In this document: piece by piece, positions 17,297 to 57,203 of the stretch | How the letters are laid out: every line of letters begins with the position of its first letter | How positions within the stretch are numbered: the stretch's first letter is position 1 | From: a virus | Lineage: Duplodnaviria > Caudoviricetes | Length of the DNA stretch: 61,086 nucleotides | Direction: 5' to 3' (one strand) | Virus record (IMG/VR): IMGVR_UViG_3300028837_001401 | Location: 1 to 61,086 of that record | Notes under the pieces: generated by a model | What the model saw: the letters and a program-made list of their open reading frames with translations, nothing else | Databases searched by the model: none | Told to the model about the DNA's origin: nothing | Translations under genes and position numbers: made by a program

Positions 17297-17524
17297 GTGT
17301 TCTATCAGTTGATAACAATACTGGGGGCACTCCTGACGGGGGTGGGGTACTATTTCAACATCCGGAAGAAACGGATCTGCTTCTGGATCTGGATCGTCGG
17401 CAACTTGGTGTGGTTGTCGAGTTGTCTGATAATAACGAATTGGGGTCTGATATTGACAAACACAACGTTTATTGGGGTGAATTTTGTGGGATGGCGCAAA
17501 TGGAGGAAAGAAGATGAGCGATAA
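17297..17524 (+). CDS. small membrane protein (PnuC-like)
   Basis: GGAGG RBS before GTG; three hydrophobic segments, CFWIWIVGN, GWRKW. Confidence 0.6.
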   Translation: MFYQLITILGALLTGVGYYFNIRKKRICFWIWIVGNLVWLSSCLIITNWGLILTNTTFIGVNFVGWRKWRKEDER

Positions 17525-23978: not shown

Positions 23979-24080
23979 AAACTGCCCGAAGTGTGGAAGT
24001 CTATATGAGAAGGATCATTTCTGCCTCGCTACAGAGAAGATGAAACGGGTGCTTCTCGAAAAGGAGAACGGACTGAAAAT

Positions 24081-26754: not shown

Positions 26755-26755
26755 G

Positions 26756-39797: not shown

Positions 39798-40060
39798 TGT
39801 GCCCACTCTTGGTAAAGCTGCGATGGAGGTAAGGTATGTTTAGTTGGCAAATAAACAGAATGGCACGGTATAGGGATCGAATGAAGAGGATAAATGATCG
39901 CAGATACGGGGAGGATGCCAGTGTTAGTCCGGACGGGGAATATATGGGCCATTTTGGTAGTCGTGGAAGTAAGTCGCCTACAAACAAGACTGATCCGTTG
40001 AGTAAGATTTTCCGCGTTTTGGGGTGTAAAGAATAACGCCCCAGGATGCGTGTATTCTGG

Positions 40061-40138
40061 GGGTCAGTAGCTTAATTGGATCAGAGCAGCGGTCTCCAAA
40101 ACCGTGGGGTGTGGGTTCGACTCCCACCTGACTCGCCA
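40061..40138 (+). tRNA. tRNA-Trp(CCA)
   Basis: GGGTCAG/CTGACTC acceptor stem, loop CTCCAAA, GGTTCGACTCC, encoded CCA. Confidence 0.93.
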
Positions 40139-40150
40139 GAAGACAAGTAT

Positions 40151-40226
40151 TGCGGGGTGGGGCAGTTGGTAGCCCGCTGGATTCATACTCCAGAGGTCGG
40201 AGGTTCAAATCCTCCCCCCGCTACCA
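40151..40226 (+). tRNA. tRNA-Met(CAU), initiator-like 1:72 mismatch
   Basis: TGCGGGG/CCCCGCT acceptor stem, loop TTCATAC, GGTTCAAATCC, encoded CCA. Confidence 0.9.
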
Positions 40227-44519: not shown

Positions 44520-44552
44520 TTGACATATATGCTTACTTACAGACTAAGTAAA
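44520..44552 (+). promoter_or_regulatory. TTGACA followed by 21-bp palindrome copy 4, upstream of the scaffold/capsid genes
   Basis: TTGACA 44520-44525; CTTACTTA CAGAC TAAGTAAA 44532-44552; AAGGAG RBS follows. Confidence 0.75.
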
Positions 44553-44563
44553 AGGAGATAAAG

Positions 44564-45534: not shown

Positions 45535-46656
45535 ATGGCGATTGCAGGTCTGGCACGCACGTATGATCAAAGTACAGCGGCAAGGGAGGATCTCGAAGAC
45601 ACAATAGCGATGATCAGCCCGACTGATACACCGTTGTTCGCTCTGATGAACCGTGCGCCAGTAAGTAATATCAAACACGAATGGCTCGAAGACGCTCTGC
45701 GTGGTATGAACGACACACTGTCTGCCGCTATGGCGAGCGATGGCGGTAGTGTTACGATGTTTGTCAACAACGGAGCTGCCCGGTGGCCGATTGCATCGAA
45801 CTTCCCGATCCTTCTAAGGATCGATGAGGAGATAATGCTGGCTACAGCGAGAACGGGTAGCAATGTCACAGTTACGAGAGACTATAACAGCACAGGAACA
45901 GCGGCTCACTCAAGTTCTGCCCGGGTTGAGATTATATCCGACAAAGGACTTGAAGGAGCAGACGCCCGGTCGGCGTTTGCACAGACCCGCACACGACCGT
46001 ATAACGCAAGTGAAATATTCGATGCGACAATACAGGTCTCCGGGTCGGAGCAGGCGACGATCCTGGCGGGTATATCTGGAACTGAGGCGGACTACCAAGC
46101 CGAGCAGCGTCTCAAAGAGATGAAGATTCAGCTTGAGAAAGCCATCATTACAGGAACGCTTGTCGATGGAACAACAACCACCTACAGGTCGATGGGTGGA
46201 TTGTGGCATTTCATCAGCACGAACAAAGCTAACGCCGTTGGGGCAGCCATAACTGGTGACGATATCGAAGCGGATGCCAGGGCATGTTTTGACGCCGGCG
46301 GAAATCCGTCGGTGATAATGTGCAACAGTTACCTTGCCGAGCGGATAACGCACATCTATAACGACAGGATCAGGTCTGAGCCCGAGACGATTCTCGGCGG
46401 TGCCCAGATTCAGCGTATCCGACTGCCTGTGGCAGGCATGGGTGAATTGGCGATAATTGTCAATAGATGGTGTCCGCCTTATGAATATTATATCCTGTCA
46501 ATGGATAAGATATTCCTGGGTCGGTTCAGACCGTTTTTCTTCCAGGATCTTGCGCTGACTGGTGACGCTGTGAAGTCACAGATCATCGGTGAGTATACGC
46601 TGATCGTGAAAAACGAGAAGGCACATGCCCGCAGGTACGGACTAGCGCTTAGCTAA
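45535..46656 (+). CDS. major capsid protein (DUF5309/SU10-like)
   Basis: REDLED.IAMISPTDTP, HEWLED, RSMGGL, LALTGD...IGEYTL. Confidence 0.88.
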   Translation: MAIAGLARTYDQSTAAREDLEDTIAMISPTDTPLFALMNRAPVSNIKHEWLEDALRGMNDTLSAAMASDGGSVTMFVNNGAARWPIASNFPILLRIDEEIMLATARTGSNVTVTRDYNSTGTAAHSSSARVEIISDKGLEGADARSAFAQTRTRPYNASEIFDATIQVSGSEQATILAGISGTEADYQAEQRLKEMKIQLEKAIITGTLVDGTTTTYRSMGGLWHFISTNKANAVGAAITGDDIEADARACFDAGGNPSVIMCNSYLAERITHIYNDRIRSEPETILGGAQIQRIRLPVAGMGELAIIVNRWCPPYEYYILSMDKIFLGRFRPFFFQDLALTGDAVKSQIIGEYTLIVKNEKAHARRYGLALS

Positions 46657-46672
46657 ACGTAAACTCTAAACT

Positions 46673-46700
46673 GGGGTAGCGTTTAGCTGCCCCTCCTTTC
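46673..46700 (+). terminator. hairpin after the capsid gene (weak terminator or stabiliser)
   Basis: GGGGTAGC-GTTTA-GCTGCCCC then TCCTTTC. Confidence 0.5.
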
Positions 46701-46716
46701 AGGAGGGTGATATTGA

Positions 46717-47109
46717 ATGGGTAATTACGGATCGAGTTTCTGCCCCAGGTTGAATAGGCTCGGTGTGACGAGTCAGCTTATAGTGACTGGGGTAATTGGC
46801 ACACGACATCTGGCGGCTGGTGCTGTCACTAATGCAAAAGTTCCCGACGGTGGGCTTACCCTGGGTACTGCAAAATCAGGGTCAACGTGTGGTAAGTTGG
46901 ATGCGGCGTATGTGGAATTCAGCACAGCCGCCAGCAATACACAGGTTACTGTGGCTCATGGACTCGGTAGAGCCCCCGTGGGTATGGAAGTTGTGATGCA
47001 GGACAAACCGGGTGTGCTCTATAGAGGTACAGCGGCCGCTTTCACAGCGACAAATATGTGGGTAAAGACAAACATGGGAACGGTTGTCTTTACACTCAGA
47101 GTATTCTAA
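46717..47109 (+). CDS. probable capsid decoration / head fibre protein
   Basis: Gly/Thr/Ala-rich, LAAGAVTNAK, VAHGLGRAP; follows the capsid gene. Confidence 0.55.
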   Translation: MGNYGSSFCPRLNRLGVTSQLIVTGVIGTRHLAAGAVTNAKVPDGGLTLGTAKSGSTCGKLDAAYVEFSTAASNTQVTVAHGLGRAPVGMEVVMQDKPGVLYRGTAAAFTATNMWVKTNMGTVVFTLRVF

Positions 47110-47135
47110 TAATCCACCCACAAGGTGGATGATAA

Positions 47136-47180
47136 GGCCGCCTCTTTCCCGAACATGGAGAGAGGCGGTCGCTTTATTTC
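47136..47180 (+). terminator. terminator-like hairpin between the head gene and maf
   Basis: GGCCGCCTCTTTCC-CGAACAT-GGAGAGAGGCGGTC then GCTTTATTTC. Confidence 0.6.
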
Positions 47181-47193
47181 AGGGAGACGATGT

Positions 47194-48636
47194 ATGAATG
47201 CAGACAACGAGCAAATGATGCAAATGATTTCCAGAAACACTGTCCGAGCGAGAATTATGGACTGGATAGACAACTTCAAGGCAAACTTACCGAGGGTGCA
47301 TGGGGGTTACGGGATCGCCTCGATGCTTGCCTGTTTTGGAGGCAAAGTACCCTGCATAATAGTTGGGAGCGGCCCGACTCTGGACTGGAACATAAAGGAT
47401 CTCAAGGATGTAGGCAACAGGGCGTGCATCCTGTGTTGTGACAGTGCTACCAAGGCGCTTCTGAAGGAAGGCATCCGCCCGCATATAGTTGTAACAACGG
47501 ACTCAAAAGGGCGTGTAGCGGACTTCATTGACGGGTGTGATGGTCTCAATTTCGTGGTTGACACGTTTGTTCATCCACGGACTATCGAAGCGATAGAGAA
47601 GAACGAGAACAGCAGGGTCTACTTCTACAACACGATGGATGTGGAGATGTGTCCATTCACATCGCATTTGAATGACAAGACGGGCTTTATCGGCAATCTA
47701 GGGACAGGTGGGTGTGTGGCAACGACCGCATGGTTCTTAGCGGTCGCTTTCTTAACAGCGGAGCCTGACATCCTTGTGGGTCTTCCGGAGAGTTTCTACG
47801 ATCCTGGGAGGATGTATGCCACTGTTGTGGAGAACACTGTCAGCACAGAGCCATACCAGACTATTCCAGACATGGTGGAGGACATCCACGGCAGGACGTG
47901 TTACACGTATCCTGCACTGTTATCCTTCGCTCACTGGTTTCATGACTCTTTCAAGAGAATTCCGACAGTGCATATCAACGCATCGGAGGGCGGCATACTG
48001 AAAGATCATATACTCAACATGCCACTCCGGCATGTTGTTGACAAGTATTTGACAAAAGAATATGACATCGAGGGGATGCTCTTTGCGAAGGAAATACAAG
48101 CGCAGGGGATCATTGACAGGGTTCTAGCAAGTCAGCCTGCGGGTGTGGATCTGCCTTTCGATATTCAAGCCGAAAAGCCACTGATGACAATTTTACTGGA
48201 CGGGCCGTCACTGATGAACCTCGCTCTCCGGATGGGATCTGAGGTAAATGAGGTCAAGAATCGGGTAGAGCGACTGCGTGGTCTGGGTTTGAATATAGAT
48301 GAAGGTGTTACTCAGCAAGGGACTGAGGATGGGGTAGTAAACGTACCGACGTTCCAGCTTATTGGGTTACAGGGTGATATTGAGCAGCCCAATGAGCGAG
48401 AGGTCATCGAGGTAACACTTCCGTCAGCACAGGTCGGTCAGGTTGGTCAGGAGACGACTCAACTGGTGGGAGCGAAGCCAGTAGATCAGGAGACTGAGGT
48501 AGCTGAACCAGATGACAATCGGGTTCAGATCAACACAGTGCTTAGGGAAGTCATAGGAGCGAGAAATAATGTCGAAGAGGAGAAAAGCTCTTGCAGTGAT
48601 ATGTGCGAGGGCGGGCAGCAAGGGTCTGAAGGATAA
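47194..48636 (+). CDS. Maf (MAF_flag10/DUF115) family putative nonulosonic-acid transferase
   Basis: CIIVGSGPTLDWNI..L, CCDSA..ALL..GIRPHIVVTTD, GGCVAT, ILVG, INASEGG. Confidence 0.8.
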   Translation: MNADNEQMMQMISRNTVRARIMDWIDNFKANLPRVHGGYGIASMLACFGGKVPCIIVGSGPTLDWNIKDLKDVGNRACILCCDSATKALLKEGIRPHIVVTTDSKGRVADFIDGCDGLNFVVDTFVHPRTIEAIEKNENSRVYFYNTMDVEMCPFTSHLNDKTGFIGNLGTGGCVATTAWFLAVAFLTAEPDILVGLPESFYDPGRMYATVVENTVSTEPYQTIPDMVEDIHGRTCYTYPALLSFAHWFHDSFKRIPTVHINASEGGILKDHILNMPLRHVVDKYLTKEYDIEGMLFAKEIQAQGIIDRVLASQPAGVDLPFDIQAEKPLMTILLDGPSLMNLALRMGSEVNEVKNRVERLRGLGLNIDEGVTQQGTEDGVVNVPTFQLIGLQGDIEQPNEREVIEVTLPSAQVGQVGQETTQLVGAKPVDQETEVAEPDDNRVQINTVLREVIGARNNVEEEKSSCSDMCEGGQQGSEG

Positions 48637-49282
48637 GAACTTTGCGAAGGTGCAGGACAAGCCACTGATCTGGTATTCATGCAACGCCGCTCTATCGGCG
48701 AAAAGTCTCTCCAGGACACTGGTGTCGAGTGACAGTGATGTCATACTGTCACTCGCCGCCGAGTATGGTGTGGAAACCCTGAAGCGACCCGATCAGTATG
48801 CGACTGACACGTCTCGTATCGAGGAGGCGATGATCCATGCTCTCGAATTCGCTGAGAGCGATGGTGAGCGATATGACTTGGTTGCCTTACTACAGAACTC
48901 CAGTCCAATGAGGATCGGGCAGGACATTGATGGTGCGGTGGCTCAGATGGGTGCGTGTTGGGATGAAGCCGACTCGGTAATGTCTGTGAACACGGTGATC
49001 GGCAGTCACCCTCTGAAGATGAAGAAAATCACTGATGGGGGTCTCCTGGTGCCGTTCATTGACAACCATGGTCTTTACAGGCGACAGGACTACCCGCCTG
49101 TGTTTGAAGAAAATGGTTGTGTGTATGTGGTCAAGAGATCATATCTGTTGGAACACCACAGGGTAATCGCTGAGAGATGTGTACCGTATTTCATCGACCC
49201 TGTCAGGTCGTTTGATGTGCATGACGATAACGACTTGATTGTTGTAGAGGCACTCATGAAAAAAAGGGGTGTGGGATTATAG
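48569..49282 (+). CDS. neuA: CMP-nonulosonic acid synthetase (acylneuraminate cytidylyltransferase)
   Basis: ICARAGSKGLKDKN, VSSD, LQNSSPMR, RRQD, ENGCVY, SFDVHD. Confidence 0.92.
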   Translation: MSKRRKALAVICARAGSKGLKDKNFAKVQDKPLIWYSCNAALSAKSLSRTLVSSDSDVILSLAAEYGVETLKRPDQYATDTSRIEEAMIHALEFAESDGERYDLVALLQNSSPMRIGQDIDGAVAQMGACWDEADSVMSVNTVIGSHPLKMKKITDGGLLVPFIDNHGLYRRQDYPPVFEENGCVYVVKRSYLLEHHRVIAERCVPYFIDPVRSFDVHDDNDLIVVEALMKKRGVGL

Positions 49283-49519
49283 TAACAAATTACACACGGA
49301 GGAAAACAAATGATGTCGGATCTTGGGTTGACTAAAGTGAGGCAGCAAAGAGGGTTCAGGCTCTCCCCTGACGAGGTTATGCCGTTGATCAATGCAATAA
49401 CCGGCCTGATGATAGATCCTGAACTGGATTCGAGTGTCCATTTTGGCGCAAAGGGTGAGGCTATCAAAGTTACACGTAAGGGTGAATATTTCGAGTTACT
49501 CCGGAGAGGTGAGTAAAAA

Positions 49520-49756
49520 ATGGGTTTACTGCTTTATATCATTGTGGGTGGCGTATTTGCCATTCTGGGGTATTTGACAAAGATAGTGAAGGACGCGAGA
49601 AAGAAGTTGAAAAAAGAGGATGAAATACCTGAGAAATACCAAACAGGTCGCTGGGAGACGGATCTGGGTAATGGTAGGAAAAGGATCACAAGGCGGATAA
49701 ACATAAATGACTTGGTGGATAACCCTGAACTGGCAAAAACTCTATTTGAGGACTAA
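49520..49756 (+). CDS. small membrane-anchored hypothetical protein
   Basis: N-terminal hydrophobic helix. Confidence 0.55.
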   Translation: MGLLLYIIVGGVFAILGYLTKIVKDARKKLKKEDEIPEKYQTGRWETDLGNGRKRITRRININDLVDNPELAKTLFED

Positions 49757-49919
49757 TAATGATTGACTTTTATTTCTATTCAACACACGCACTGTTTGCC
49801 CGTGTGAATACAGGACATTTATTTCCTTATGCAGATCCAGCGGATCTGCGCGAACAGGTGGATTCACCTGTATTGGATGCCGAAGGAAGGAAAGAGCTTT
49901 TTCTGTCTGGAGGAGAAAG

Positions 49920-51269
49920 ATGGCTAATGTCTTACTCGTGAATATGGTGATCCGAGAATTTGCCCCGCCGAATAACGTTCCATTGGGGCCTTGCTACATC
50001 GCCTCGTATCTGGAGAGTCATGGGCACAGGGTGGATATATGCGACCTGAACGGGTTGAGATGGATCGACCAGAGACGTGAGAAATGGCTCAGCGAGACGG
50101 TGAAGGGCAAGAAATATGACTTTGTGGGTCTTTCGGGTCTCATAGTGACAGCGAAGGAGCACAGGCGTGTTCTGGACTTCCTATATGAGATCAAGAGAGA
50201 ACTCGGAGATCCTTTCTTTGTAGCAGGTGGGGGTCTTGCGACGAGTGTACCTCAGTTTGTGTTCCAGTACCTCCCTGAGATCGACATAGTGGCTATCGGC
50301 GAGGGTGAGGAGACCATGCTGGACATCGCTGATGGGATGGACTGGGAGGACATACCAGGTATTTGGTGGAAACACCCCCCTGATGAGGTGTATGTCAAGA
50401 ACTCTCCACGGCCTTTCATTGGGGATCTGGACAGCCTCCCGTTTCCAGCATGGGACAAAGTTCCCGTCGATAAGGTGTATGTGGGACACCCGATCTGGGG
50501 TGGTATTGTGAAGAACTCCAGCGGGATCAACTACAAAGCAAAGAAGTCGATGAACACAGTGGTCAGCCGTGGATGCCCGTATGAATGCGGATTCTGTGCT
50601 CATGGTGTCATCTGGGGGAAGCGATACAGAATGCGGTCGCCTGGGAATGTTATCGCCGAGATGCGGGAGTTAAAGCGGCGGTATGGGATCGACTTTGTGG
50701 GCTTCGTTGACGATAACACAACGGCGATCAGGCGATGGACTATGGAGTTCTGTGATCAGCTAATCGACTCTGGGCTGGACATCAAGTGGGGGTGTTCTGC
50801 CCGTGTGAATGCCGTCGATCCTGAGATGCTCAAGTTGATGAAACAGGCGGGTTGTGAATGGATAGGATACGGTGTTGAGTCGGCGTGTCAGAAGACGCTG
50901 GATGCAATGAATAAGCAGACGACTCCTGAGATGGCAGCGAGAGCGATCAGGTGGACACGAGAAGCGGGGATGTGGGCGAATACTACATATATAATAGGAT
51001 ACGAGGGAGAGACTGAGGAAGACTTCAAACAGACAGCGGATTTCATGATAGATAATAAAGCCGTCAACTCGGTATTCTACGCCACGGCGTATCCGGGCAC
51101 ACCATTCTACGAGCGAAACAAAGAGAAGATCCTAGAGGTCTATGGGAGTGAGAAGGAATACATATTGAGTCTGGGCGATGCGACGGAGTTCACTGTCAAT
51201 TTCTCTGAGATGTCCACGGAACGGATGAAGGAACTCCGTGCAAAAGCGATGGCGGGAGAGAGAATATGA
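49920..51269 (+). CDS. B12-binding radical SAM enzyme
   Basis: PLG..YIASYL, AGGG, GEGEET, SRGCPYECGFC, FVDDN, YGVES. Confidence 0.92.
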   Translation: MANVLLVNMVIREFAPPNNVPLGPCYIASYLESHGHRVDICDLNGLRWIDQRREKWLSETVKGKKYDFVGLSGLIVTAKEHRRVLDFLYEIKRELGDPFFVAGGGLATSVPQFVFQYLPEIDIVAIGEGEETMLDIADGMDWEDIPGIWWKHPPDEVYVKNSPRPFIGDLDSLPFPAWDKVPVDKVYVGHPIWGGIVKNSSGINYKAKKSMNTVVSRGCPYECGFCAHGVIWGKRYRMRSPGNVIAEMRELKRRYGIDFVGFVDDNTTAIRRWTMEFCDQLIDSGLDIKWGCSARVNAVDPEMLKLMKQAGCEWIGYGVESACQKTLDAMNKQTTPEMAARAIRWTREAGMWANTTYIIGYEGETEEDFKQTADFMIDNKAVNSVFYATAYPGTPFYERNKEKILEVYGSEKEYILSLGDATEFTVNFSEMSTERMKELRAKAMAGERI

Positions 51270-51772
51270 GACTAGAGAACTGGTGGGCTGTGTATCAAGC
51301 GGGGTGGTTTTTCATCAGGATAGAGGTGGAGCCGAATCCCATACAACACGGGGCAACTGTCAGGATGGACACCAAGGTAAAAACATGGATCGACAGAAAA
51401 CTGTATATCAAATACCTCATTCTTGGCAAAATCATGAGGTTTTTGGGTTTTTCGTTTGTTCTGCAGCCGAGGCAGATTGACGGGTCAAGCTACCGATGGA
51501 GTGAGGAGTCGGTGGGAGAGCTATACTATGATCTTTGATATGAGCAGGGACATCCGACATACTGGTGAGCATGAGGGTCTCTGGACAGGAAACGAGAGGG
51601 GGCATTCTCTATGCGATCATCCCGCGATGGAGGATCTCAGGGAACTGAGAGAGCTGAGGGGCAGGATGGAGAAGATCCGTGAGGCGGTGTCGAGTCTCTG
51701 GCAGATCAGCAAGAAGATAGATGATAAAGAGGTTCAGCATCAAGTGCAGTCAATTCTTTCGAGGATCGGGAA

Positions 51773-52273
51773 ATGAATGAGATTCGAGCGATATGTTCAG
51801 ATGTTGATGGAGTGCTCACTGATGGTGGGTACATATACATGCCTGTCAAGAGCCGTGGTTTCGATGGGCAGGTTGCCATAGGCAAGAAATTCAACTCCCG
51901 TGATGCTGCCGCAGCCAAGGTCTGGAGAGATGTGGGTAATGAGTTATTCATAGTGACAGCGGGTGATGATAATGTCACAAGGCAGAGGATGACACGATAC
52001 ACCCCGTATTGCTACTGGGGTCAGGTAGACAAAGCGGCAACGGTGTTAGAAATCAGCGAGACGTTTGACATCCCTGTCTCTCAGATGGCTTTCATCGGTG
52101 ACGATCATCTGGACATACCAGCCATGGTGGTCAAGGATCTGGGTCTCAAGGCATGTCCAGCGGATGCAGCAGCACGGGTGATGCGACTGGCGGATTATGT
52201 CTGTATGCGACCAGGTGGGAATGGTGCGCTGGCGGAATTGATAGAGCACCTTTTGTATCTTGATATGGGGTAA
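51773..52273 (+). CDS. KdsC/YrbI-family HAD phosphatase (KDO-8-P / nonulosonate-9-P phosphatase)
   Basis: DVDGVLTDG, KFNSRD, FIGDD..DI, CPADA, GGNGA. Confidence 0.9.
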   Translation: MNEIRAICSDVDGVLTDGGYIYMPVKSRGFDGQVAIGKKFNSRDAAAAKVWRDVGNELFIVTAGDDNVTRQRMTRYTPYCYWGQVDKAATVLEISETFDIPVSQMAFIGDDHLDIPAMVVKDLGLKACPADAAARVMRLADYVCMRPGGNGALAELIEHLLYLDMG

Positions 52274-52287
52274 TAAATAGGAGACGG

Positions 52288-53007
52288 ATGCCTAGAAAGA
52301 AAGACCCCAAGAAAAAATATACAACGCAATGCTTAAATTGTGGGACAGATATTGAAGGCTGGGTTTGCCGCCCACGAAAATTCTGCTCTTTATCATGCAG
52401 CACTGCATATCGAAATAGGGGATCGGTATGTAGCGAAGAAACCAAAAGAAAAATCGGAGAGGCTAATAAAGGGCGTTTAATAGGGAAACAAAATCCTTCC
52501 CAACGACCCGAAGTCAGGAAAAAAATAAGCCTGGCGCTTAAAGGACGAGAAACGCCGTGGAATTATAAGCAGAGAGGGGTTAAGCGTCCACAGACTTCGC
52601 GGGCTTTGGTCAAAGCCTATAAGGACGGCAGAGCAAGAATTGACAAGTCTGCTTGGGGAGCGGGGGGTTATAGAGAAGATTTGGGTCAATATTTTAGAAG
52701 TAGGTGGGAAGCGAATTTTGCAAGGATATTGTCTCTTTGGGGGTTAAGTTGGCAATACGAACCTGCTATTTTCTTGCTAGATATTTCGGGTGTGGAGTAT
52801 ACATATCGCCCTGATTTTTATTTACCCAACGAAGGGCATTACTATGAAGTCAAGGGTTACTGGACAAATATTGCAAAGAAGAAGTTTGAAGCATTTAGCA
52901 AGAAACACGATGTAACATTGATTGATCAAGAAAAATATACAGAATTGGCATCTTTGTTTAGAAGCAAAATACCCAATTGGGAGAATAGCGATGGACACCC
53001 TTATTGA
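52288..53007 (+). CDS. free-standing homing-type endonuclease (Zn-finger, NUMOD3, PD-(D/E)XK)
   Basis: CLNC...FCSLSC, SEETKRKIGEANKG, FRSRWEANFA, YRPDF...EVKGY; visibly AT-richer. Confidence 0.8.
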   Translation: MPRKKDPKKKYTTQCLNCGTDIEGWVCRPRKFCSLSCSTAYRNRGSVCSEETKRKIGEANKGRLIGKQNPSQRPEVRKKISLALKGRETPWNYKQRGVKRPQTSRALVKAYKDGRARIDKSAWGAGGYREDLGQYFRSRWEANFARILSLWGLSWQYEPAIFLLDISGVEYTYRPDFYLPNEGHYYEVKGYWTNIAKKKFEAFSKKHDVTLIDQEKYTELASLFRSKIPNWENSDGHPY

Positions 53008-53857
53008 AAGAGATCTTATTATGGTGGCTGAAGCAGGAATAAATCATGGAGGAAAACTGGAGACGGCACTGGAACTGATCAGCCTGGCGAAGTGGGCAGG
53101 GTTCGATTACGTGAAGTTCCAGAAACGTGATCCGTTATTGTATCCTGAGAAGCCGTATAACTCCCCGCTCTTGGGGCAGACGACTTACAGGAAGCACAAG
53201 CAGTTTTTGGAGTTGAGTTATCAGGATTATGAGGCAATCGACGTCTACTGTAAGGAGATCGGGATCGAATGGTTCGCATCTGTGTTTGACAAGCCCTCCG
53301 TGGACTTTATGAAGGTGTTCAACCCACCGTTCTGGAAACTGCCCTCACCGGCGATATTTAACAAAGATCTGGTGAGGTATGTTGCAGAGCAGGGTGGGAA
53401 AGTGATCATGAGCACAGGTATGTCCGAACTTCCCGAAGTTATCCGTGCGGTGAACATTCTCAGGGCGTATGGGAAGCATGAGGGAGACTGGTTGTATATT
53501 CTCCACTGTTGTTCCGAATACAAGACGCCGAAAGAGCATGTGAACTTGAATTATATCCCCACGTTGGTGAAGCTGTTTCCTTATGCAAGGGTCGGATACT
53601 CCAGCCACGATGCGGGTGTGCCCTTCTCGGTGGGTGCGGTAGCGAAGGGTGCGGAAATGATCGAGGTGCATGTAACACTTGACAGGACAATGAAGGGATC
53701 GGATCACAAGGCTTCACTTGAGCGGGAGGAGATAGAACGGGTAGTGAGGCATTGTCAAGACACGTATATTGCCCTTGGTGATGGTGATGTGAAGCACTTC
53801 TACCCAGAGGAGAAGCGGATCAGGGAAAAAGTGATGCAAACAGCGGGGAGCAAGTAA
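52991..53857 (+). CDS. neuB: nonulosonic acid (N-acetylneuraminate-type) synthase lacking the C-terminal AFP/SAF domain
   Basis: AEAGINHGG, VKFQKR, WFASVFD, IMSTGM, LHC.S.Y, GYSSHD, IEVHVTLDR...GSDH.ASL. Confidence 0.93.
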   Translation: MDTLIERDLIMVAEAGINHGGKLETALELISLAKWAGFDYVKFQKRDPLLYPEKPYNSPLLGQTTYRKHKQFLELSYQDYEAIDVYCKEIGIEWFASVFDKPSVDFMKVFNPPFWKLPSPAIFNKDLVRYVAEQGGKVIMSTGMSELPEVIRAVNILRAYGKHEGDWLYILHCCSEYKTPKEHVNLNYIPTLVKLFPYARVGYSSHDAGVPFSVGAVAKGAEMIEVHVTLDRTMKGSDHKASLEREEIERVVRHCQDTYIALGDGDVKHFYPEEKRIREKVMQTAGSK

Positions 53858-54237
53858 TGGCGAAGACTACACAAACACAGTTTAAGTATTTCCAGAAGTG
53901 TTGTGACGAATATATTGAGTTTTTCGGTCTGAAGAACTGGACGATATATTACCAATTATACGATTTCGAGGATCGTAGCCTTGCCGAGGTGCACTGGAAA
54001 ATCCCCGGCAATGTCGCGACGATATATTTAGCCGCACAGGATGATAGCGACGTCGCCCCCTTTACAATGGAGCAGTTAAGAGCGACGGCACTACACGAGA
54101 TTGTCCACCTTGTCTTAACACCGCTATATGATTGTGCGACAAACAGATACACTTCAGAGACAGAAGTAGATACCGCTTGTGAGCAAGCGGTTAGAAATAT
54201 TTGCAATGTAATCACGTTTCCGAGGGCAAAGAAATGA
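53857..54237 (+). CDS. putative zincin-like metallopeptidase
   Basis: ALHEIVH (HExxH) with downstream E. Confidence 0.55.
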   Translation: MAKTTQTQFKYFQKCCDEYIEFFGLKNWTIYYQLYDFEDRSLAEVHWKIPGNVATIYLAAQDDSDVAPFTMEQLRATALHEIVHLVLTPLYDCATNRYTSETEVDTACEQAVRNICNVITFPRAKK

Positions 54238-54692
54238 TCATAGCAGTTGACTTTGACGGGACGTTTATAGAGAAACCAATCAGGTACACGGATCTAATCA
54301 CACAGTTGAGGCGGGCCGGGAATGTGGTGGGCATCCTTACGGGCCGCACGATGTGGACACAAGGAAGCGATGAGGAGATCCTTGCCCATTACAGGTGTCG
54401 GGTAGATTTCTTCTGGAACACGGGTCTCTTGAACAGGTACGAGCTGGAGATCTGTGACTGGATAAGCGACGAGAAAATAAGCATGGAGAGGGATCTGGTT
54501 ATCTCTATGTTTAAGGCGCGGATATGTAAAGAGCGGAGGGTTGCGATCCTTATAGACGATGCAGCCGACAAGATCAGGATGTTCGACTGTGGGGAGACTA
54601 TCGTTTTGAAGAGCCCGACGGAGTTCAACAAGGTTGTGCCGAGGTGGGAAAACCACCTCTTGACATACAACGAAGAGGGTCAGGAACTATGA
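54234..54692 (+). CDS. HAD-superfamily phosphatase
   Basis: IAVDFDGT, LTGR, K, LIDD. Confidence 0.82.
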   Translation: MIIAVDFDGTFIEKPIRYTDLITQLRRAGNVVGILTGRTMWTQGSDEEILAHYRCRVDFFWNTGLLNRYELEICDWISDEKISMERDLVISMFKARICKERRVAILIDDAADKIRMFDCGETIVLKSPTEFNKVVPRWENHLLTYNEEGQEL

Positions 54693-55372
54693 GAGCACTT
54701 CCAGAAAAGGGTTTGATTGTATCGTGCTATTTGGAGAGCATGAGATACTGCGAGAGGGACTTCATTTCAGCCGTGGCGCACGTTCCCGGTGTGGTGGGTC
54801 TCCGGGTGGAGGGCCTGGAAAACATCGAGTTTGCCCGTAGGATCGCTCCTGAAAAGTTCATTATCGGACTGGTGAAGGTAAAGCAGGGAGCGAATGGGAC
54901 TGCCATCACTCCGAGTCTTGAAGATGGGTATAATGTGCATCATGCAGGGGCGGACATGATAGCCACAAGCCATCTCCTGGAGTGGACACACCCGCTGGGT
55001 GGTGAAATATGCACCCCGCACGGTTTCGCCGTGCCGTTCAGGATAATGGCGGACATGAGTGGGGAGACGTTCAGGGAACTCTGTGAGCGGAGTGAATTGC
55101 TCCTGGCATCTTTCCGGAGGGAGATAGACGAGAGAAATCTGGTGTTTGCGACAACGTTTGAAGACTATGGGATCGGGTTGTTACAGAACATCAAAAAGGC
55201 GTTTCCCTGTGCTCTGGTGAATCTGGAGGGCGGGGTCTGGAATCCTGAGATGCTAGTGGACGCCTTCCGCCATGGTGCGGATTATGTGACAATCGGGAAG
55301 GCGATCAATGATCCGAGGTTCATCACGGAGATGCTTGTGAGCGAATGTAACAGGATGATAGCGGGTGAATAG
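54689..55372 (+). CDS. nanE: N-acetylmannosamine-6-phosphate 2-epimerase-like protein
   Basis: GLIVSC, GLRVEG..NI, IIGLVK, ITPS, AGADMIA, IMAD, EGG, V.IGKAI. Confidence 0.8.
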   Translation: MRALPEKGLIVSCYLESMRYCERDFISAVAHVPGVVGLRVEGLENIEFARRIAPEKFIIGLVKVKQGANGTAITPSLEDGYNVHHAGADMIATSHLLEWTHPLGGEICTPHGFAVPFRIMADMSGETFRELCERSELLLASFRREIDERNLVFATTFEDYGIGLLQNIKKAFPCALVNLEGGVWNPEMLVDAFRHGADYVTIGKAINDPRFITEMLVSECNRMIAGE

Positions 55373-55821
55373 GATGAGATCATACAGCAGCATGGAGAAA
55401 ATTGAAAAAGATTTTTTCCCTTCCCTGTTTCGGGAAAGGGAATTGAGGCTCATGAGAGAGAATCCAGGAGAATGGGGCCGCCGACTGGCGCGGAAGCATT
55501 TGGAGGCGCTCAGAGAGGCGTTCAGAGAGGCGGGGTGAGGTGACACAATGTCCCGAATAGAACACACCTGTGGAGGCACACCACATATTGCCTACTTTGA
55601 CCGGCAGATGTTGGGTTTCAAGCACTTTGAGATGATTCGAGATTTTGGCGACATTCTGCCGAAGATACGGATCAGAACAAAGAGGGGCAGAGGGCTAACC
55701 TTTTGGGGTCGCACGGTCGCAAAGCAATATAATATTGAGACCCAGAAGCGAGAAGATAGATTAGTCGAGGTAGTGATCTGTTTACCGGGGTTTTTGATTA
55801 CTTACCAAGTGAGGTGATAGT

Positions 55822-56172
55822 ATGGCGAAAAGACGTTTCAAGTTAGGGACAGCAGGCGGACATGGTGGAGTTGGGTGGATAGGAAAGAAGTATTATGATG
55901 AGTCATGTGTGGTGGAATTGGATGAGGACGTTCCCGAAGAGATGGAGCAGATCAGGCTACTGGAGCGAGCGGGCTCCGTGGTTTCGGAGATAGATGCGTC
56001 CGAGGGTGTTGCTCCTCCGGAGGAGGAAATTCCACTGCCTGAGTTGGATGACATGAGCATCAATGAGCTTCGGAAGTTTGGCAGGTCGAATGCTCTCCCT
56101 GTGACAAATTCCATGAAAAAGGATGAGCTGATCGAGTTGATCCGTGGGGGTCTAACACAAGAGGGAAGTTAA
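55822..56172 (+). CDS. head-region protein with C-terminal Rho-N/HeH-like domain
   Basis: LDDMSINELRKF......MKKDELIELI. Confidence 0.7.
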   Translation: MAKRRFKLGTAGGHGGVGWIGKKYYDESCVVELDEDVPEEMEQIRLLERAGSVVSEIDASEGVAPPEEEIPLPELDDMSINELRKFGRSNALPVTNSMKKDELIELIRGGLTQEGS

Positions 56173-57203
56173 TGAAAGTTCTGGGAGTAGGGCACTGGGG
56201 AGCGATAGGTGATCAGGTTTATGCCATCCCCGCATTAGCGGAATTGAGGAAGCATTATGTTTTCCTTGTTGGCTATTTGAAATGGAACAAAGGGATCACT
56301 GAGGAGATATTCAGGAACTCCGGGCTGTTTGACAAATACATCTGGCGCTACCCTGAGATGGATACATGGACGGTTGATCAGGAAAAAGCATACTTGCTTG
56401 AGGAGTTGATGGACGTGGATATGCACGATGAGGGATCGACGTTCATAAACTTCCGGAAGGTCGTTCCTGGTGTGTATATTCACCATGCGCGGTGGCCTTC
56501 TAAAGAAGACCCGGATCCGGGGTTCTGGTGGTCATACGAGAAAAAGCGGAACATGGCTTTTGACGTGAACTTTTTCGAGGTGTTTATGGAGTTTGCGGGT
56601 TTGAAGCCCCGGAAGGGTGCGAGACCGTTTTTTGTTACTGACTATGGGGAACGGGAGTGGCTGGACGGATTCAAGCACCGATACGGTATTCCCAGAGATG
56701 CCTTTCTGTTGATGTGGCAATGGGAGGGTAGTTCTATGATCAAGCAGTATCCGCACGTCCAGGACGCCCTCCTGCCAGTGATGGAGGCGCACGATGACAT
56801 ATATCTGATTGGTCTGGGAGACAAGAGAACACAAAACGTCTCCTGGAGAGGTGCGGGTGCGAGGTTCATCAACTTTGCAGGGCGTTTGAAGTGGCGACAG
56901 AGTATGTTACTGACGAGCATTGCCGACTGTTATGTGGGGCCTGAGACGGGCATCACTGTTGCGGCACAGGCGTTCCCACGGACGCCGAAGATATTACTTG
57001 CGACGCACACCTATGGGCATCACATCACCTGTGGGTCTGACACGGTTGTCATACAGTCAGAGGCGAAGTGCTCCCCCTGTTTCAACATTGTCGATGATTG
57101 CATCAGGGAGGGTGAGCATCCGTGGGCGATGTGTGTGGGAAAGATACCTCCTGAAAGGATAGCGGAGGAAATAGAGAAGGTCTACGAAAGGAGACGGGAT
57201 TAA
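56172..57203 (+). CDS. glycosyltransferase family 9 (heptosyltransferase-like)
   Basis: GAIGD....PAL..LRK, K.YP, ADCYVGPETG, CSPCF...C...C...IPPERI. Confidence 0.85.
   Translation: MKVLGVGHWGAIGDQVYAIPALAELRKHYVFLVGYLKWNKGITEEIFRNSGLFDKYIWRYPEMDTWTVDQEKAYLLEELMDVDMHDEGSTFINFRKVVPGVYIHHARWPSKEDPDPGFWWSYEKKRNMAFDVNFFEVFMEFAGLKPRKGARPFFVTDYGEREWLDGFKHRYGIPRDAFLLMWQWEGSSMIKQYPHVQDALLPVMEAHDDIYLIGLGDKRTQNVSWRGAGARFINFAGRLKWRQSMLLTSIADCYVGPETGITVAAQAFPRTPKILLATHTYGHHITCGSDTVVIQSEAKCSPCFNIVDDCIREGEHPWAMCVGKIPPERIAEEIEKVYERRRD

What the first reader, a model, noticed from the sequence alone, without database searches (positions are those of the whole stretch)
47194..57203. Sialic-acid-type biosynthesis and transfer pathway embedded in the head module: candidate virion glycosylation system
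Seen: between the capsid/decoration genes and the head-tail adaptor lie co-oriented genes for a Maf (DUF115) protein, NeuA, a B12 radical SAM enzyme, a KdsC-like phosphatase, NeuB, a second HAD phosphatase, NanE and a GT9. The Rho-N-domain gene (55822), which often sits just after the capsid gene in phages, is displaced about 9 kb by this block. Established: NeuB and NeuA make and CMP-activate nonulosonic acids; Maf proteins are implicated in transferring such sugars to Ser/Thr of flagellins; virion glycosylation by phage glycosyltransferases is known in some actinobacteriophages. Inference: this phage makes its own CMP-nonulosonate late in infection and coats capsid or tail proteins with a possibly methylated sialic-type sugar. 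I am not aware of a described phage carrying both donor pathway and Maf transferase inside its morphogenesis operon.
Basis: partly seen in the sequence, partly recalled or inferred. Interest (0 to 1): 0.92.

Follow-up and report, generated by a model that had tools for sequence, protein, structure and literature searches.

The report
Phage sialic-acid pathway beside capsid genes
An uncultured sediment phage and its relatives carry, right after their capsid and fibre genes, a full enzyme set for making an activated sialic-type sugar plus a flagellin-type sugar transferase, which probably coats the virus particle with that sugar.

Summary
Between the major capsid gene (45535-46656) plus a small fibre-like gene (46717-47109) and a Rho_N gene lie co-oriented genes for a Maf-type transferase, a CMP-sialate synthetase (NeuA), a B12 radical SAM enzyme, a KdsC-family phosphatase, a NeuB lacking its SAF domain, a HAD-like protein and NanE. 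The "GT9" has no significant HMM match and rests on predicted-structure neighbours only.

The order MCP, fibre, Maf, NeuA, rSAM, phosphatase, NeuB, NanE recurs in diverged metagenomic contigs (MCP 33-61% identical). None of 32 more distant MCP relatives carries it. A fibre gene sits directly upstream of Maf in 7 of 7 loci that reach far enough. In 3 of 5 lineages a hairpin plus U-tract separates the two.

The gene set implies a 6-phosphate route: GlcNAc-6-P, ManNAc-6-P, Neu5Ac-9-P, Neu5Ac, CMP-Neu5Ac. No NeuC, aminotransferase or flagellin gene was found in the record.

The phage Maf keeps the catalytic core but lacks the parts of a full-length flagellar Maf outside it.

Virion glycosylation, most likely of the fibre, is the best reading (about 0.5) but is not shown. 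I found no published equivalent.

The parts
45535..46656 (+). Major capsid protein, SU10 type
   Evidence: PF17236, E 1.3e-71. Homologues at 33-61% identity lie upstream of the block in L003/L011, L006, L007 and L010.
46717..47109 (+). g130: short member of a virion fibre family. It has an N-terminal FCPxLN motif, one to two Thr-rich repeats and a C-terminal beta-sandwich knob. It is the best candidate acceptor.
   Evidence: A homologue lies directly upstream of Maf in 7 of 7 loci with enough upstream sequence. Relatives are 153-568 aa with many 'AVTTAKI'-type repeats. 305 representative homologues. 16 of 61 family members match PHROG tail-fibre families. AF2 mean pLDDT 81.6. Foldseek likeness to phage fibre tips is weak, with none at E <= 1e-3.
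47136..47170 (+). 14-bp stem-loop followed by a U-rich tract, then the RBS and Maf start. Terminator- or attenuator-like.
   Evidence: MFE -37.4 kcal/mol, z -5.05, 0 of 200 shuffles fold as well. Hairpins of different sequence sit at the same place in L011 (z -5.47) and L006 (z -3.06).
47194..48636 (+). Maf-type (DUF115 / Maf_flag10) putative nonulosonate transferase. Minimal architecture with a disordered acidic tail.
   Evidence: PF01973, 94.7 bits. NCBIfam PseD matched only over positions 197-470 of 640. AF2 pLDDT 85.2. Foldseek top hit is 5MU5 Maf, E 6.8e-8. D103 aligns with 5MU5 residue 324.
48569..49282 (+). CMP-nonulosonate synthetase (NeuA-like)
   Evidence: CTP_transf_3, 56.1 bits. 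Best solved relatives are CMP-Neu5Ac synthetases 6ifd and 1eyr, E about 1e-23.
49310..49941 (+). Three small ORFs (68, 78 and 60 aa) of unknown function, not conserved in relatives
   Evidence: No tblastn match in related loci.
49920..51269 (+). B12-binding radical SAM enzyme, possibly a tailoring enzyme. Among the most conserved proteins of the block.
   Evidence: Radical_SAM 90.6 bits and B12-binding 53.9 bits. All NCBIfam matches are below their cut-offs. Full-length matches are 51-57% identical in L007, L010 and L011; partial matches at the contig ends of L003 and L005 reach 61-74%.
51266..51776 (+). Two small overlapping ORFs of unknown function
   Evidence: No NCBIfam match for the 51266-51538 product; the second ORF was not scanned. 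No tblastn match for either in related loci.
51773..52273 (+). KdsC/YrbI-family HAD phosphatase, inferred nonulosonate-9-phosphate phosphatase
   Evidence: TIGR01670 E 1.8e-24 and NF058599 (KDN-9-P phosphatase) E 3.6e-22, both below their cut-offs. Best PDB chains are 4hgq, 4hgr and 3e81, E about 1e-16.
52288..53007 (+). Homing endonuclease (NUMOD3 plus endonuclease-I-like) inserted between the phosphatase and NeuB
   Evidence: PF07460 E 2.7e-8 and PF05367 E 5.9e-5. No tblastn match for it in any related locus. In L011 the two flanking genes abut; in L007 they are separated only by a 112-aa ORF.
53021..53857 (+). NeuB-family synthase of 278 aa, without the C-terminal SAF domain
   Evidence: PF03102, 214.9 bits. 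TIGR03569 NeuB 225.6 bits against PseI 167.8 bits, both below their cut-offs, with the match ending at 276 of 329. The start was chosen. Relatives are 278-293 aa.
53857..54237 (+). 126-aa ORF of unknown function
   Evidence: No family match. Not found in relatives.
54234..54692 (+). HAD-like protein with a DFDGT motif. Accessory, not found in relatives.
   Evidence: Motif seen. PHROG matches of E 3e-6 to 3e-4. No Pfam or NCBIfam match. No tblastn match in relatives.
54689..55372 (+). Diverged NanE (N-acylmannosamine-6-phosphate 2-epimerase)
   Evidence: PF04131, 41.6 bits. Near full-length match to NanE structures 3igs and 3q58, E 8e-8. 42-46% identical homologues in L007 and L011.
55822..56172 (+). 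Rho_N-domain protein marking the resumption of the ordinary module
   Evidence: PF07498, 24.5 bits against a cut-off of 24.9. A homologue follows NanE in L011.
56172..57203 (+). GT-B protein distantly like GT9 heptosyltransferases. Possible second transferase.
   Evidence: ESM Atlas structure neighbours: viral clusters at TM 0.81-0.84 and heptosyltransferase II at TM 0.75. PF01075 reaches only E 0.24. 34% identical homologue in L010 only.
17484..19091 (+). HldE-like bifunctional heptose-phosphate adenylyltransferase/kinase. Possible donor supply for the GT9-like protein. Lies outside the finding.
   Evidence: NF008454 E 1e-41, TIGR02199 E 9.7e-32 and TIGR02198 E 3.3e-24, all below their cut-offs. 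Pfam PfkB and CTP_transf_like.

Best explanation
The block is a self-contained, phage-encoded system that makes a CMP-activated sialic-type nonulosonic acid and puts it on a protein of the phage's own particle.

Inferred pathway. NanE turns host GlcNAc-6-P into ManNAc-6-P. The SAF-less NeuB condenses it with PEP to give Neu5Ac-9-P, or KDN-9-P if mannose-6-P is used. The KdsC-family phosphatase removes the 9-phosphate. NeuA activates the sugar with CTP. The conserved B12 radical SAM enzyme probably tailors the sugar or its acceptor; its chemistry is unknown.

Inferred transfer. The Maf-type transferase has a flagellin-Maf catalytic core but not the rest of a full-length flagellar Maf. It transfers the sugar to Ser/Thr of a virion protein. 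The most likely acceptor is the Thr-rich fibre encoded immediately upstream, possibly also the capsid protein.

Inferred expression. The enzymes are read through from the capsid/fibre transcript past an attenuating hairpin. Structural proteins are therefore made in bulk and the enzymes in catalytic amounts.

Shown: gene identities, conserved gene order, the hairpins, and the Maf fold and one catalytic residue. Inferred: substrates, timing, acceptor and the existence of the glycan.
For: Gene identities are.

Pathway logic. NanE acts on 6-phosphates, and KdsC-family phosphatases act on ulosonate 8- or 9-phosphates (established knowledge of these families). No NeuC-type epimerase (PF02350) and no DegT aminotransferase, which Pse/Leg routes need, is in the record.

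Maf. The AF2 model has pLDDT 85.2. Its best solved match is the Maf glycosyltransferase 5MU5 (E 6.8e-8, probability 1.00, 406 columns). Next come the archaeal MptE kinases of the same Pfam family, then a human sialyltransferase at E 4.5e-3. The invariant D103 aligns with 5MU5 residue 324, which passages of preprint 10.1101/2020.06.03.131540 name as critical for activity.

Virion link, conserved order. portal, head morphogenesis, scaffold, MCP, fibre, Maf, NeuA, rSAM, phosphatase, NeuB, NanE recurs in L003/L011, L007 and L010, and as far as the contig reaches in L006 (L010 lacks a detectable phosphatase and NanE). MCP identity there is only 33-61%.

Virion link, fibre adjacency. A fibre-family gene is directly upstream of Maf in 7 of 7 loci with enough sequence. 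This is 6 of 6 if L003/L011, which gave identical match coordinates, count once.

Virion link, contig size. The 31 close Maf homologues (40-56% identity) all lie on contigs of 1.5-73.5 kb. The next hit drops to 26% identity.

Virion link, no flagellin. The record has no flagellin gene.

Virion link, trimmed Maf. The phage Maf covers only positions 197-470 of the 640-position PseD model. The abstract of preprint 10.1101/2023.12.03.569772 places flagellin recognition in a C-terminal TPR domain or a separate factor, GlfM.

Fibre family. It has Thr-rich decapeptide repeats. 16 of 61 scanned members match PHROG tail-fibre families and 11 of 61 match a 'virion structural protein' family.

Hairpin. 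A hairpin plus U-tract lies between the fibre gene and Maf in the window, L011 and L006, with z of -5.05, -5.47 and -3.06 and different sequences.
Against: No glycan, transcript or protein was observed.

Maf enzymes are known only from flagellin glycosylation. Phage sugar genes are usually read as host-surface modifiers (passage of 10.1101/655167).

The window's own fibre protein is the shortest of its family, with only one or two repeats, so few of the supposed acceptor sites exist in this phage.

Two of the five lineages examined (L007, L010) have only 13-24 nt between the fibre gene and Maf, too short for such a hairpin.

L010 lacks a detectable phosphatase and NanE. In L006 an MT-A70 gene, not NeuA, follows Maf before the contig ends.

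Ser+Thr richness is shared by all structural proteins of the window and is common in phage structural proteins, so it does not single out an acceptor.

The fibre could be a tail fibre rather than a head fibre.

The NeuB, phosphatase and NeuA scores lie below NCBIfam equivalog cut-offs, so the sugar's identity is not fixed.
Confidence: 0.5

Rival explanations
1. The system acts on the host, not the virion. Maf sialylates host flagellin or another host surface protein during infection or lysogeny, for example to block superinfection by flagellotropic phages or to change motility.
For: Every characterised Maf modifies flagellin (abstracts listed). The record has an integrase-domain ORF at 28177-28905 and an RDF-like domain at 778-2751, so a temperate lifestyle is not excluded. 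Phage sugar genes are commonly interpreted this way.
Against: The phage Maf covers only positions 197-470 of the 640-position PseD model, so it lacks the parts of a full-length flagellar Maf outside the catalytic core. The block keeps its place between the fibre gene and the connector-side genes across phages whose MCPs are only 33-61% identical, which is unusual for a moron. It is on the same strand as the capsid genes. Promoter-like sites in the region are not clearly above chance (24 found against 17.1, sd 4.0, expected).
Confidence: 0.2
2. Only the donor pathway matters. The phage boosts the CMP-sialate pool for host transferases that build LPS, capsule or S-layer glycans, as an auxiliary metabolic gene set. 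Maf has a minor or different role.
For: neuA/neuB/neuC clusters in lake viruses have been read this way. A second sugar block with a TIGR04372 glycosyltransferase and an HldE-like enzyme lies elsewhere in the genome.
Against: Maf is the first gene of the block. It is present by construction in every related locus, because the loci were found with it. NeuA follows it in 8 of 9 loci with downstream sequence. A lytic phage gains little from rebuilding host surface polymers late in infection.
Confidence: 0.12
3. The sugar is attached to phage DNA as a hypermodification rather than to protein.
For: Phage glycosyltransferases that hypermodify DNA with diverse glycans are known (abstract of 10.1101/2023.12.21.572611). 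The genome is rich in DNA methyltransferases.
Against: That preprint's text mentions no nonulosonic, sialic or CMP sugars; its two 'Maf' matches are the program name MAFFT. The Maf fold is known for protein O-glycosylation. I did not search the window for 5-hydroxymethylpyrimidine pathway genes, so their absence is not established.
Confidence: 0.03
4. The PF01973 protein is not a glycosyltransferase. It would be a pyrophosphokinase-like enzyme of the MptE branch, and the block would make a free or lipid-linked sugar.
For: PF01973 also holds archaeal MptE kinases, which are the second-best structural matches (8sd5, E 1.3e-4).
Against: The Maf structure 5MU5 matches better and over 406 columns, against about 210-220 for MptE. 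The catalytic-site acid is conserved. The neighbours are NeuA and NeuB, not folate genes.
Confidence: 0.03

Closest known systems
Maf (motility accessory factor) flagellin nonulosonic-acid O-glycosyltransferases, e.g. Magnetospirillum magneticum Maf (PDB 5MU5) and Clostridium botulinum and Geobacillus kaustophilus Mafs
   Same: Same Pfam domain above the gathering score. 5MU5 is the best structural match. An acidic residue is conserved at the position of 5MU5 residue 324. The gene lies next to CMP-nonulosonate synthesis genes, as in flagellin glycosylation islands. Mafs can use CMP-Neu5Ac (abstracts).
   Different: About 480 aa with only the central part matching (positions 197-470 of a 640-position model). 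No TPR domain was detected by Pfam. It is encoded by a phage beside capsid and fibre genes, with no flagellin in the record. It forms a separate clade: 31 homologues at 40-56% identity, then a drop to 26%.
Phosphorylated sialic-acid / KDN route: animal NANS plus NANP, and the Bacteroides thetaiotaomicron KDN-9-P synthase with the BT1713 phosphatase. The assignment of the PDB chains to BT1713 is recalled, not from a call.
   Same: A NeuB-family synthase is combined with a KdsC-family phosphatase and a CMP synthetase. The phosphatase's best solved relatives are the 3e81/4hgq chains. NCBIfam's KDN-9-P phosphatase model matches at E 3.6e-22.
   Different: NanE is used as the entry enzyme from GlcNAc-6-P (inferred), instead of GNE or mannose-6-P. 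The NeuB lacks the SAF domain. All of it is encoded in a phage structural module together with a B12 radical SAM enzyme.
Virion glycosylation in mycobacteriophages (Freeman et al. 2023, Cell Host Microbe). I saw the paper only as an entry in reference lists and it was not held. Its content is recalled.
   Same: Phage-encoded glycosyltransferases are proposed or shown to decorate capsid and tail proteins of the phage's own particle.
   Different: As I recall, that system uses ordinary GT-family enzymes and host nucleotide sugars, and no nonulosonic acid. Here there is a complete donor pathway and a Maf-type enzyme, placed directly after the capsid and fibre genes.
Virus-encoded sugar pathways for glycosylated fibrils of giant viruses such as Mimivirus (recalled, not from a call)
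   Same: A virus encodes both the nucleotide-sugar synthesis and the transferases that coat fibres on its particle.
   Different: Those are eukaryotic giant viruses with different sugars and enzymes. Here a phage record of 61 kb is proposed to do so with a sialic-type sugar.
neuA/neuB/neuC clusters in uncultured lake phages, read as host-surface auxiliary genes (passage of 10.1101/655167)
   Same: Phage-borne NeuA and NeuB.
   Different: Those clusters use NeuC and Pse/Pgl-type enzymes. The passage I read does not tie them to a Maf or to the capsid module.

Membership tests
Maf / PF01973 (Maf_flag10, DUF115) | Domain match above Pfam's gathering score | tested here: met
   94.7 bits against 34.6, residues 50-220 of the 503-aa reading.
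Maf / PF01973 (Maf_flag10, DUF115) | Fold like the solved Maf glycosyltransferase | tested here: met
   AF2 pLDDT 85.2. Foldseek rank 1 is 5MU5, E 6.8e-8, probability 1.00, 406 columns. TM is only 0.43 by query, as expected if domain arrangement differs.
Maf / PF01973 (Maf_flag10, DUF115) | Catalytic acidic residues equivalent to residues 324 and 415 of M. magneticum Maf | tested here: inconclusive
   The invariant D103 aligns with residue 324 (residues named in passages of 10.1101/2020.06.03.131540). The partner of residue 415 could not be assigned without a residue-level structural alignment.
Flagellar Maf proteins (PseD/PseE, Maf-1/Maf-2 type) | Full-length architecture with flagellin-recognition module, and linkage to flagellin genes | tested here: not met
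   NCBIfam PseD scores 59.7 bits against a cut-off of 670 and covers only positions 197-470 of 640. There is no flagellin in the record. The neighbours are MCP and a fibre gene.
Flagellar Maf proteins (PseD/PseE, Maf-1/Maf-2 type) | Transfer of a CMP-nonulosonate to Ser/Thr of a protein | not testable with these tools
   Needs an enzyme assay or co-expression with mass spectrometry.
NeuB family (PF03102) nonulosonate synthases | NeuB TIM-barrel domain | tested here: met
   214.9 bits against 22.1. Solved relatives include 1vli, 6ncs, 8h2c and 1xuu.
NeuB family (PF03102) nonulosonate synthases | C-terminal SAF (antifreeze-like) domain, and equivalog-level score for Neu5Ac synthase | tested here: not met
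   The protein is 278 aa. The TIGR03569 match ends at 276 of 329, with 225.6 bits against a cut-off of 399.65. Relatives are equally short.
CMP-nonulosonate synthetases (CTP_transf_3) | Domain above cut-off, and nearest solved relatives are CMP-Neu5Ac synthetases | tested here: met
   56.1 bits against 22.6. 6ifd at E 1.1e-23 and 1eyr at E 2.4e-23. The PseF equivalog is below its cut-off (95.5 against 205.7).
KdsC/YrbI C0-type HAD phosphatases | Subfamily model above its curated cut-off | tested here: inconclusive
   TIGR01670 E 1.8e-24, but 86.5 bits against 106.95. There are 16 solved relatives at E <= 1e-3; most are named KdsC/YrbI-type phosphatases, and the top chains are filed as acylneuraminate cytidylyltransferase.
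NanE (PF04131) | Domain above cut-off and full-length likeness to solved NanE | tested here: met
   41.6 bits against 27. 3igs and 3q58 at E 8e-8 over residues 7-207 of 227. The NCBIfam subfamily is below its cut-off (63.8 against 189).
Class B (cobalamin-dependent) radical SAM enzymes | B12-binding domain plus radical SAM domain | tested here: met
   53.9 bits against 32.1 and 90.6 bits against 29.5. No equivalog reached its cut-off, so the reaction is unknown.
GT9 heptosyltransferases (PF01075) | Sequence match to the family | tested here: not met
   E 0.24, 11.1 bits against 22. No PDB sequence match even with a 2-sequence profile.
GT9 heptosyltransferases (PF01075) | GT-B fold like heptosyltransferases | tested here: inconclusive
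   ESM Atlas structure rows: heptosyltransferase II cluster at TM 0.75, which meets the tool's bar for a name, and viral clusters at TM 0.81-0.84 with 13-17% PF01075 carriers. Both sides are predicted models.
Phage virion glycosylation systems | Glycan demonstrated on virion proteins | not testable with these tools
   Needs particles or recombinant co-expression.

The most novel reading that the evidence does not exclude
A clade of sediment and groundwater phages has retargeted the flagellin sialylation machinery to its own particle. A trimmed Maf O-sialylates the Thr-rich shaft of a fibre encoded next to the capsid gene. It would use CMP-sialate made by a phage-encoded four-enzyme shortcut from GlcNAc-6-P, with the sugar further altered by a cobalamin radical SAM enzyme into a nonulosonate not yet described. 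In this phage a GT9-like transferase fed by a phage HldE-like enzyme would add a second, heptose-type decoration. The result would be a virus-made acidic glycan coat on a bacteriophage, the prokaryotic counterpart of giant-virus fibril glycosylation.
Probability: 0.25. Interest if true: 0.92.

Novelty: new variant of a known kind. Interest (0 to 1): 0.78.

Why it matters
Phage particles are usually treated as bare protein. The only phage virion glycosylation I know of (mycobacteriophages, recalled) uses ordinary sugars.

A phage that makes its own activated sialic-type sugar and carries a dedicated protein transferase in its head module would show three things. Virion glycan coats are an evolved, heritable phage trait outside actinobacteriophages. 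Maf enzymes have acceptors other than flagellin. A compact NanE, NeuB, phosphatase, NeuA route can supply CMP-sialate from a central metabolite.

Acidic sugar coats could affect particle stability, adsorption to mineral or mucus surfaces, host recognition and immune recognition.

The system is also a small, portable toolkit for protein O-sialylation. The hypothesis can be tested directly by co-expression in E. coli without culturing the phage.

Tried and rejected
Close relatives in deposited phages. Megablast of 45535-57203 found nothing. tblastn of Maf, the GT9-like protein and the 57740-58546 product also found nothing. NeuB matched only 2 of 50,697 records, both uncultured. MCP matched at 32% identity or less.

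Other collections. IMG/VR scans with Maf alone and with its alignment found no relative. The scan of species genomes gave one weak 52-residue match in a Spirochaetota MAG. The word-based search with g130 found nothing, whereas the exhaustive search found 305.

Binding. Complex prediction of Maf residues 1-395 with g130 returned 'no answer' (score 0.00). This is neither for nor against binding.

Expression. No RNA holder is listed for 45535-55372. Run X6, whose library is labelled metatranscriptomic but which the tool flags as probably DNA, holds one 631-nt contig over 46371-47001 with no differences, plus a 32-base partial match at 44544-44575. I draw nothing from this.

End of the block. The hairpin at the end of the block (55373-55480) is not better than shuffles (z 0.55), so I dropped it as a boundary signal.

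Promoters. Promoter-like sites are not clearly above chance (24 against 17.1, sd 4.0).

RNA families. Rfam found only the three tRNAs.

Ser+Thr richness as an acceptor marker. I rejected it as non-specific. The five richest of 66 ORFs are all structural-region proteins. The repeat count in that call used an ad hoc pattern of my own.

Whole records behind L003-L011. These could not be searched, so I could not test whether the relatives also carry the HldE-like block.

Supplementary files of papers were not consulted; they may list phage Maf or neuB genes that the main texts do not mention. Those aimed at prior descriptions cover open-access texts only, so 'not found' is not 'not published'.

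Full report
WHAT THE WINDOW IS. The window is a whole IMG/VR virus record of 61,086 bases. It is linear and CheckV rates it 84% complete. All long ORFs lie on the + strand, and GC skew is positive throughout. It has no near relative among 50,697 deposited phage records. Its SU10-type major capsid protein is at most 32% identical to any of them. Near-identical DNA occurs in marine sediment metagenomes. Two samples of one study hold 76-100% of the sampled words, and one of them may be the source.

THE OBSERVATION. The structural module reads as follows.
- Putative large terminase, 37062-38432. It has no Pfam match, but homologous stretches lie upstream of the portal in L007, L006 and L010.
- Three tRNA genes.
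- SPP1-type portal, 40263-41855.
- A DNA methyltransferase, 41855-43579.
- Head-morphogenesis protein and scaffold.
- MCP, 45535-46656.
- A 130-aa gene that I call g130, 46717-47109.

Then comes the block.
- Maf, 47194-48636.
- NeuA, 48569-49282.
- Three small ORFs.
- B12 radical SAM enzyme, 49920-51269.
- Two small ORFs.
- KdsC-family phosphatase, 51773-52273.
- A NUMOD3/endonuclease-I-like homing endonuclease, 52288-53007.
- NeuB, 53021-53857.
- A 126-aa ORF.
- A HAD-like ORF, 54234-54692.
- NanE, 54689-55372.

After the block come an 89-aa ORF, a Rho_N protein (55822-56172) and the supposed GT9 (56172-57203).

The second HAD rests on a DFDGT motif and weak PHROG matches. The GT9 has no significant sequence match to any family. 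It is called GT9-like only because ESM Atlas structure neighbours include heptosyltransferase II clusters at TM 0.75-0.77. The longer reading from 47125 would run through a stable hairpin.

CONSERVATION. The Maf protein has 31 close homologues (40-56% identity, E <= 6e-82). All come from metagenomes and lie on contigs of 1.5-73.5 kb. After them similarity falls to 26%. Scanning JGI metagenome contigs with their alignment gave 12 loci. tblastn with the window's proteins gave these results.
- MCP upstream of Maf in 6 of 6 loci that reach far enough (L003, L006, L007, L009, L010, L011).
- A g130-family gene immediately upstream of Maf in 7 of 7 (the same six plus L012).
- NeuA immediately downstream in 8 of 9. 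The exception is L006, where an MT-A70/T5orf172 gene follows and the contig ends.
- The B12 radical SAM enzyme in L003, L005, L007, L010 and L011.
- The phosphatase and NanE in L007 and L011. NeuB in L007, L010 and L011.

L003 and L011 gave identical match coordinates. L004 and L008 gave identical NeuA identities. Each pair probably counts once. MCP identity to the window is 61, 57, 55 and 33% in L007, L011, L006 and L010. Maf identity follows the same order (49, 47, 43, 39%). This fits joint descent, although four points are few.

None of 32 more distant MCP relatives in IMG/VR (33% identity or less) has any block gene within the 1-10 kb of flank that each record allowed. The homing endonuclease, the HAD-like ORF and the small ORFs have no detectable counterpart in relatives. 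The GT9-like gene recurs only in L010. That locus also has two class-I methyltransferases in its block, and L007 has a hexapeptide-transferase-like ORF. The conserved core is therefore Maf, NeuA, rSAM and NeuB, usually with the phosphatase and NanE. Lineage-specific tailoring genes sit around that core.

THE DONOR PATHWAY. NeuB matches the Neu5Ac-synthase model better than the pseudaminate-synthase model (225.6 against 167.8 bits). Both are below their equivalog cut-offs. The protein stops before the SAF domain, as do its relatives. NeuA's nearest solved relatives are CMP-Neu5Ac synthetases.

The phosphatase belongs to the KdsC/YrbI family. Its best solved matches are 4hgq, 4hgr and 3e81, which I recall as the Bacteroides KDN-9-P phosphatase BT1713. 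NCBIfam's KDN-9-P phosphatase model also matches, at E 3.6e-22. NanE aligns over nearly its whole length with solved NanE enzymes.

The record holds no NeuC-type epimerase and no DegT aminotransferase. The UDP-GlcNAc/ManNAc route and the Pse/Leg routes are therefore not phage-encoded.

A KdsC-family phosphatase together with an epimerase of 6-phosphates makes chemical sense only if the synthase works on a sugar 6-phosphate. I therefore infer this route: GlcNAc-6-P, ManNAc-6-P, Neu5Ac-9-P, Neu5Ac, CMP-Neu5Ac. KDN made from mannose-6-P is an alternative product. This is inference from established family chemistry. No substrate was tested.

The B12 radical SAM enzyme is among the most conserved proteins of the block: full-length matches are 51-57% identical in L007, L010 and L011. 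It reaches no equivalog cut-off. A search for nonulosonic plus radical SAM plus cobalamin found no paper.

THE TRANSFERASE. The AF2 model built on 32 homologues is confident for residues 1-395 (pLDDT 85.2 overall), and the tail is disordered. Its best solved match is the Maf glycosyltransferase of Magnetospirillum (5MU5; E 6.8e-8, 406 columns). Next come the archaeal MptE kinases of the same Pfam family, then human sialyltransferase ST8SiaIII (E 4.5e-3).

In the profile alignment the invariant D103 of the phage clade pairs with residue 324 of 5MU5. Passages of preprint 10.1101/2020.06.03.131540 name residues 324 and 415 as critical. I could not place the second residue.

The phage protein matches only the central part of full-length flagellar Mafs (positions 197-470 of 640). 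The abstract of preprint 10.1101/2023.12.03.569772 reports that flagellin recognition lies in a C-terminal TPR domain (Maf-1) or a separate factor, GlfM (Maf-2). A Maf stripped of such parts, sitting in a record without flagellin, is what one would expect of an enzyme with a different acceptor.

THE CANDIDATE ACCEPTOR. g130 and its relatives share an N-terminal FCPxLN motif and a variable run of Thr-rich decapeptide repeats ('AVTTAKI...'). They also share a C-terminal domain of about 85 residues with an HGLGRxP motif. Their lengths are 130, 153, 263, 284, 517 and 568 aa, and L007 carries two copies.

The exhaustive search found 305 representatives. Most are small proteins matching the C-terminal domain. 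Some are proteins of 1,000-4,700 aa matching the repeats many times. Of 61 members scanned, 16 match PHROG tail-fibre family 892 and 11 match a 'virion structural protein' family.

The AF2 model (pLDDT above 90 for the C-terminal beta-sandwich) weakly resembles phage fibre tips. These are AP22 gp53, the cyanophage Pam1 tailspike and the R2 pyocin fibre, with probabilities 0.85-0.97, but no match reaches E <= 1e-3.

The gene is therefore a virion fibre with a knob. Whether it sits on the head or the tail is open. Its constant position directly before Maf makes it my first candidate acceptor. Against this, the window's own copy has almost no repeats. Ser+Thr richness is also shared by all structural proteins here.

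REGULATORY HINT. Between the fibre gene and Maf lies a 14-bp GC-rich stem followed by a U-rich tract and then the ribosome-binding site. It folds far better than shuffles (z -5.05). L011 and L006 have hairpins of unrelated sequence followed by U-rich tracts at the same place (z -5.47 and -3.06). L007 and L010 have only 13-24 nt there. This is the pattern of an attenuator after highly expressed structural genes. It suggests the enzymes are made by read-through of the late capsid transcript. No transcript data support this yet.

RIVALS. The main rival is action on host flagellin or another host protein. All characterised Mafs do this, and an integrase-domain ORF and an RDF-like domain leave a temperate lifestyle open. 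The conserved position inside the morphogenesis module and the missing flanking parts of the Maf speak against it. A pure metabolic role for the donor pathway, DNA glycosylation and a non-transferase role for the PF01973 protein seem unlikely, for the reasons given under each rival.

KNOWN AND NEW. Phage-borne neuA/neuB/neuC have been noted in lake viral genomes and read as host-surface genes (passage). Virion glycosylation is known in mycobacteriophages; I saw that citation only in reference lists and the paper was not held. Maf enzymes can transfer Neu5Ac and Kdo to Ser/Thr of flagellins (abstracts).

I found no text that combines a phage, a Maf or DUF115 protein and virion or capsid glycosylation. 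Open-access coverage is partial, and supplements were not seen.

I file the find as a new variant of known kinds. It uses a known transferase family and a known type of pathway. The setting is new and the probable acceptor class is new. The entry step is unusual, and there is an unexplained cobalamin radical SAM partner.

VERDICT. I put the probability that the virion is the target at about 0.5, and that the fibre is the acceptor at about 0.3. Interest is 0.78.

Noticed in passing
window 12295-27000: A second sugar-related block: a beta-helix/pectate-lyase-like protein with a collagen-like N-terminus (12295-14016), a TIGR04372-family glycosyltransferase (15519-17003, E 8.7e-54, above its cut-off), an HldE-like heptose-phosphate adenylyltransferase/kinase with the domain order reversed (17484-19091), a radical SAM enzyme (19359-20516), a split transketolase (21400-22383 and 22797-23978) and a second B12 radical SAM enzyme (25252-26754). 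It may supply an ADP-heptose-type donor for the GT9-like protein. Its target is unknown.
   Followed up: partly
window 52288-53007: A homing endonuclease (NUMOD3 plus endonuclease-I-like) sits between the phosphatase and NeuB. It has no tblastn match in any relative; in L011 the two flanking genes abut and in L007 only a 112-aa ORF lies between them. The GC content dips to about 0.47 here.
   Followed up: partly
window 39229-40226: Three tRNA genes (Thr-UGU, Trp-CCA, Met-CAU) lie just upstream of the portal gene. The fibre family of this clade is Thr-rich. I did not test for a link.
   Followed up: no
window 46629-46733: In run X3 a variant contig differs at 11 places in 46629-46650. It then diverges after 46733, inside the N-terminus of g130 (loose end). 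This suggests strain-level variation of the fibre gene.
   Followed up: no
window 46371-47001: A run whose library is labelled metatranscriptomic, but which the tool flags as probably DNA, holds one 631-nt contig identical to the end of the MCP gene plus g130, and otherwise only a 32-base partial match at 44544-44575. A DNA run of the same study holds scattered pieces across the region. Too weak to count as expression evidence.
   Followed up: no
window 41855-43579, 34841-36127, 8251-9633: An N6/N4 DNA methyltransferase is wedged between the portal and head-morphogenesis genes. There is also an MT-A70 methyltransferase and a DUF5131 protein. In L006 an MT-A70/T5orf172 fusion follows Maf.
   Followed up: no
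window 28177-28905 and 778-2751: A 242-aa ORF combines a YopX domain with part of a tyrosine-recombinase catalytic domain. A 657-aa protein carries a Gp3-like recombination-directionality domain. Whether the phage is temperate is open.
   Followed up: no
L010 11896-12789 and 15512-16042; L007 17083-17439: Relatives carry other tailoring genes inside the block: two class-I SAM methyltransferases in L010 and a hexapeptide-repeat, acetyltransferase-like ORF in L007. This suggests lineage-specific sugar variants.
   Followed up: partly
window 56172-57203: The GT9-like protein belongs to large, almost purely viral ESM Atlas clusters (549, 134 and 78 members). Some of its structural neighbours are fused to methyltransferase domains. 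It is a widespread and undescribed phage GT-B family.
   Followed up: no
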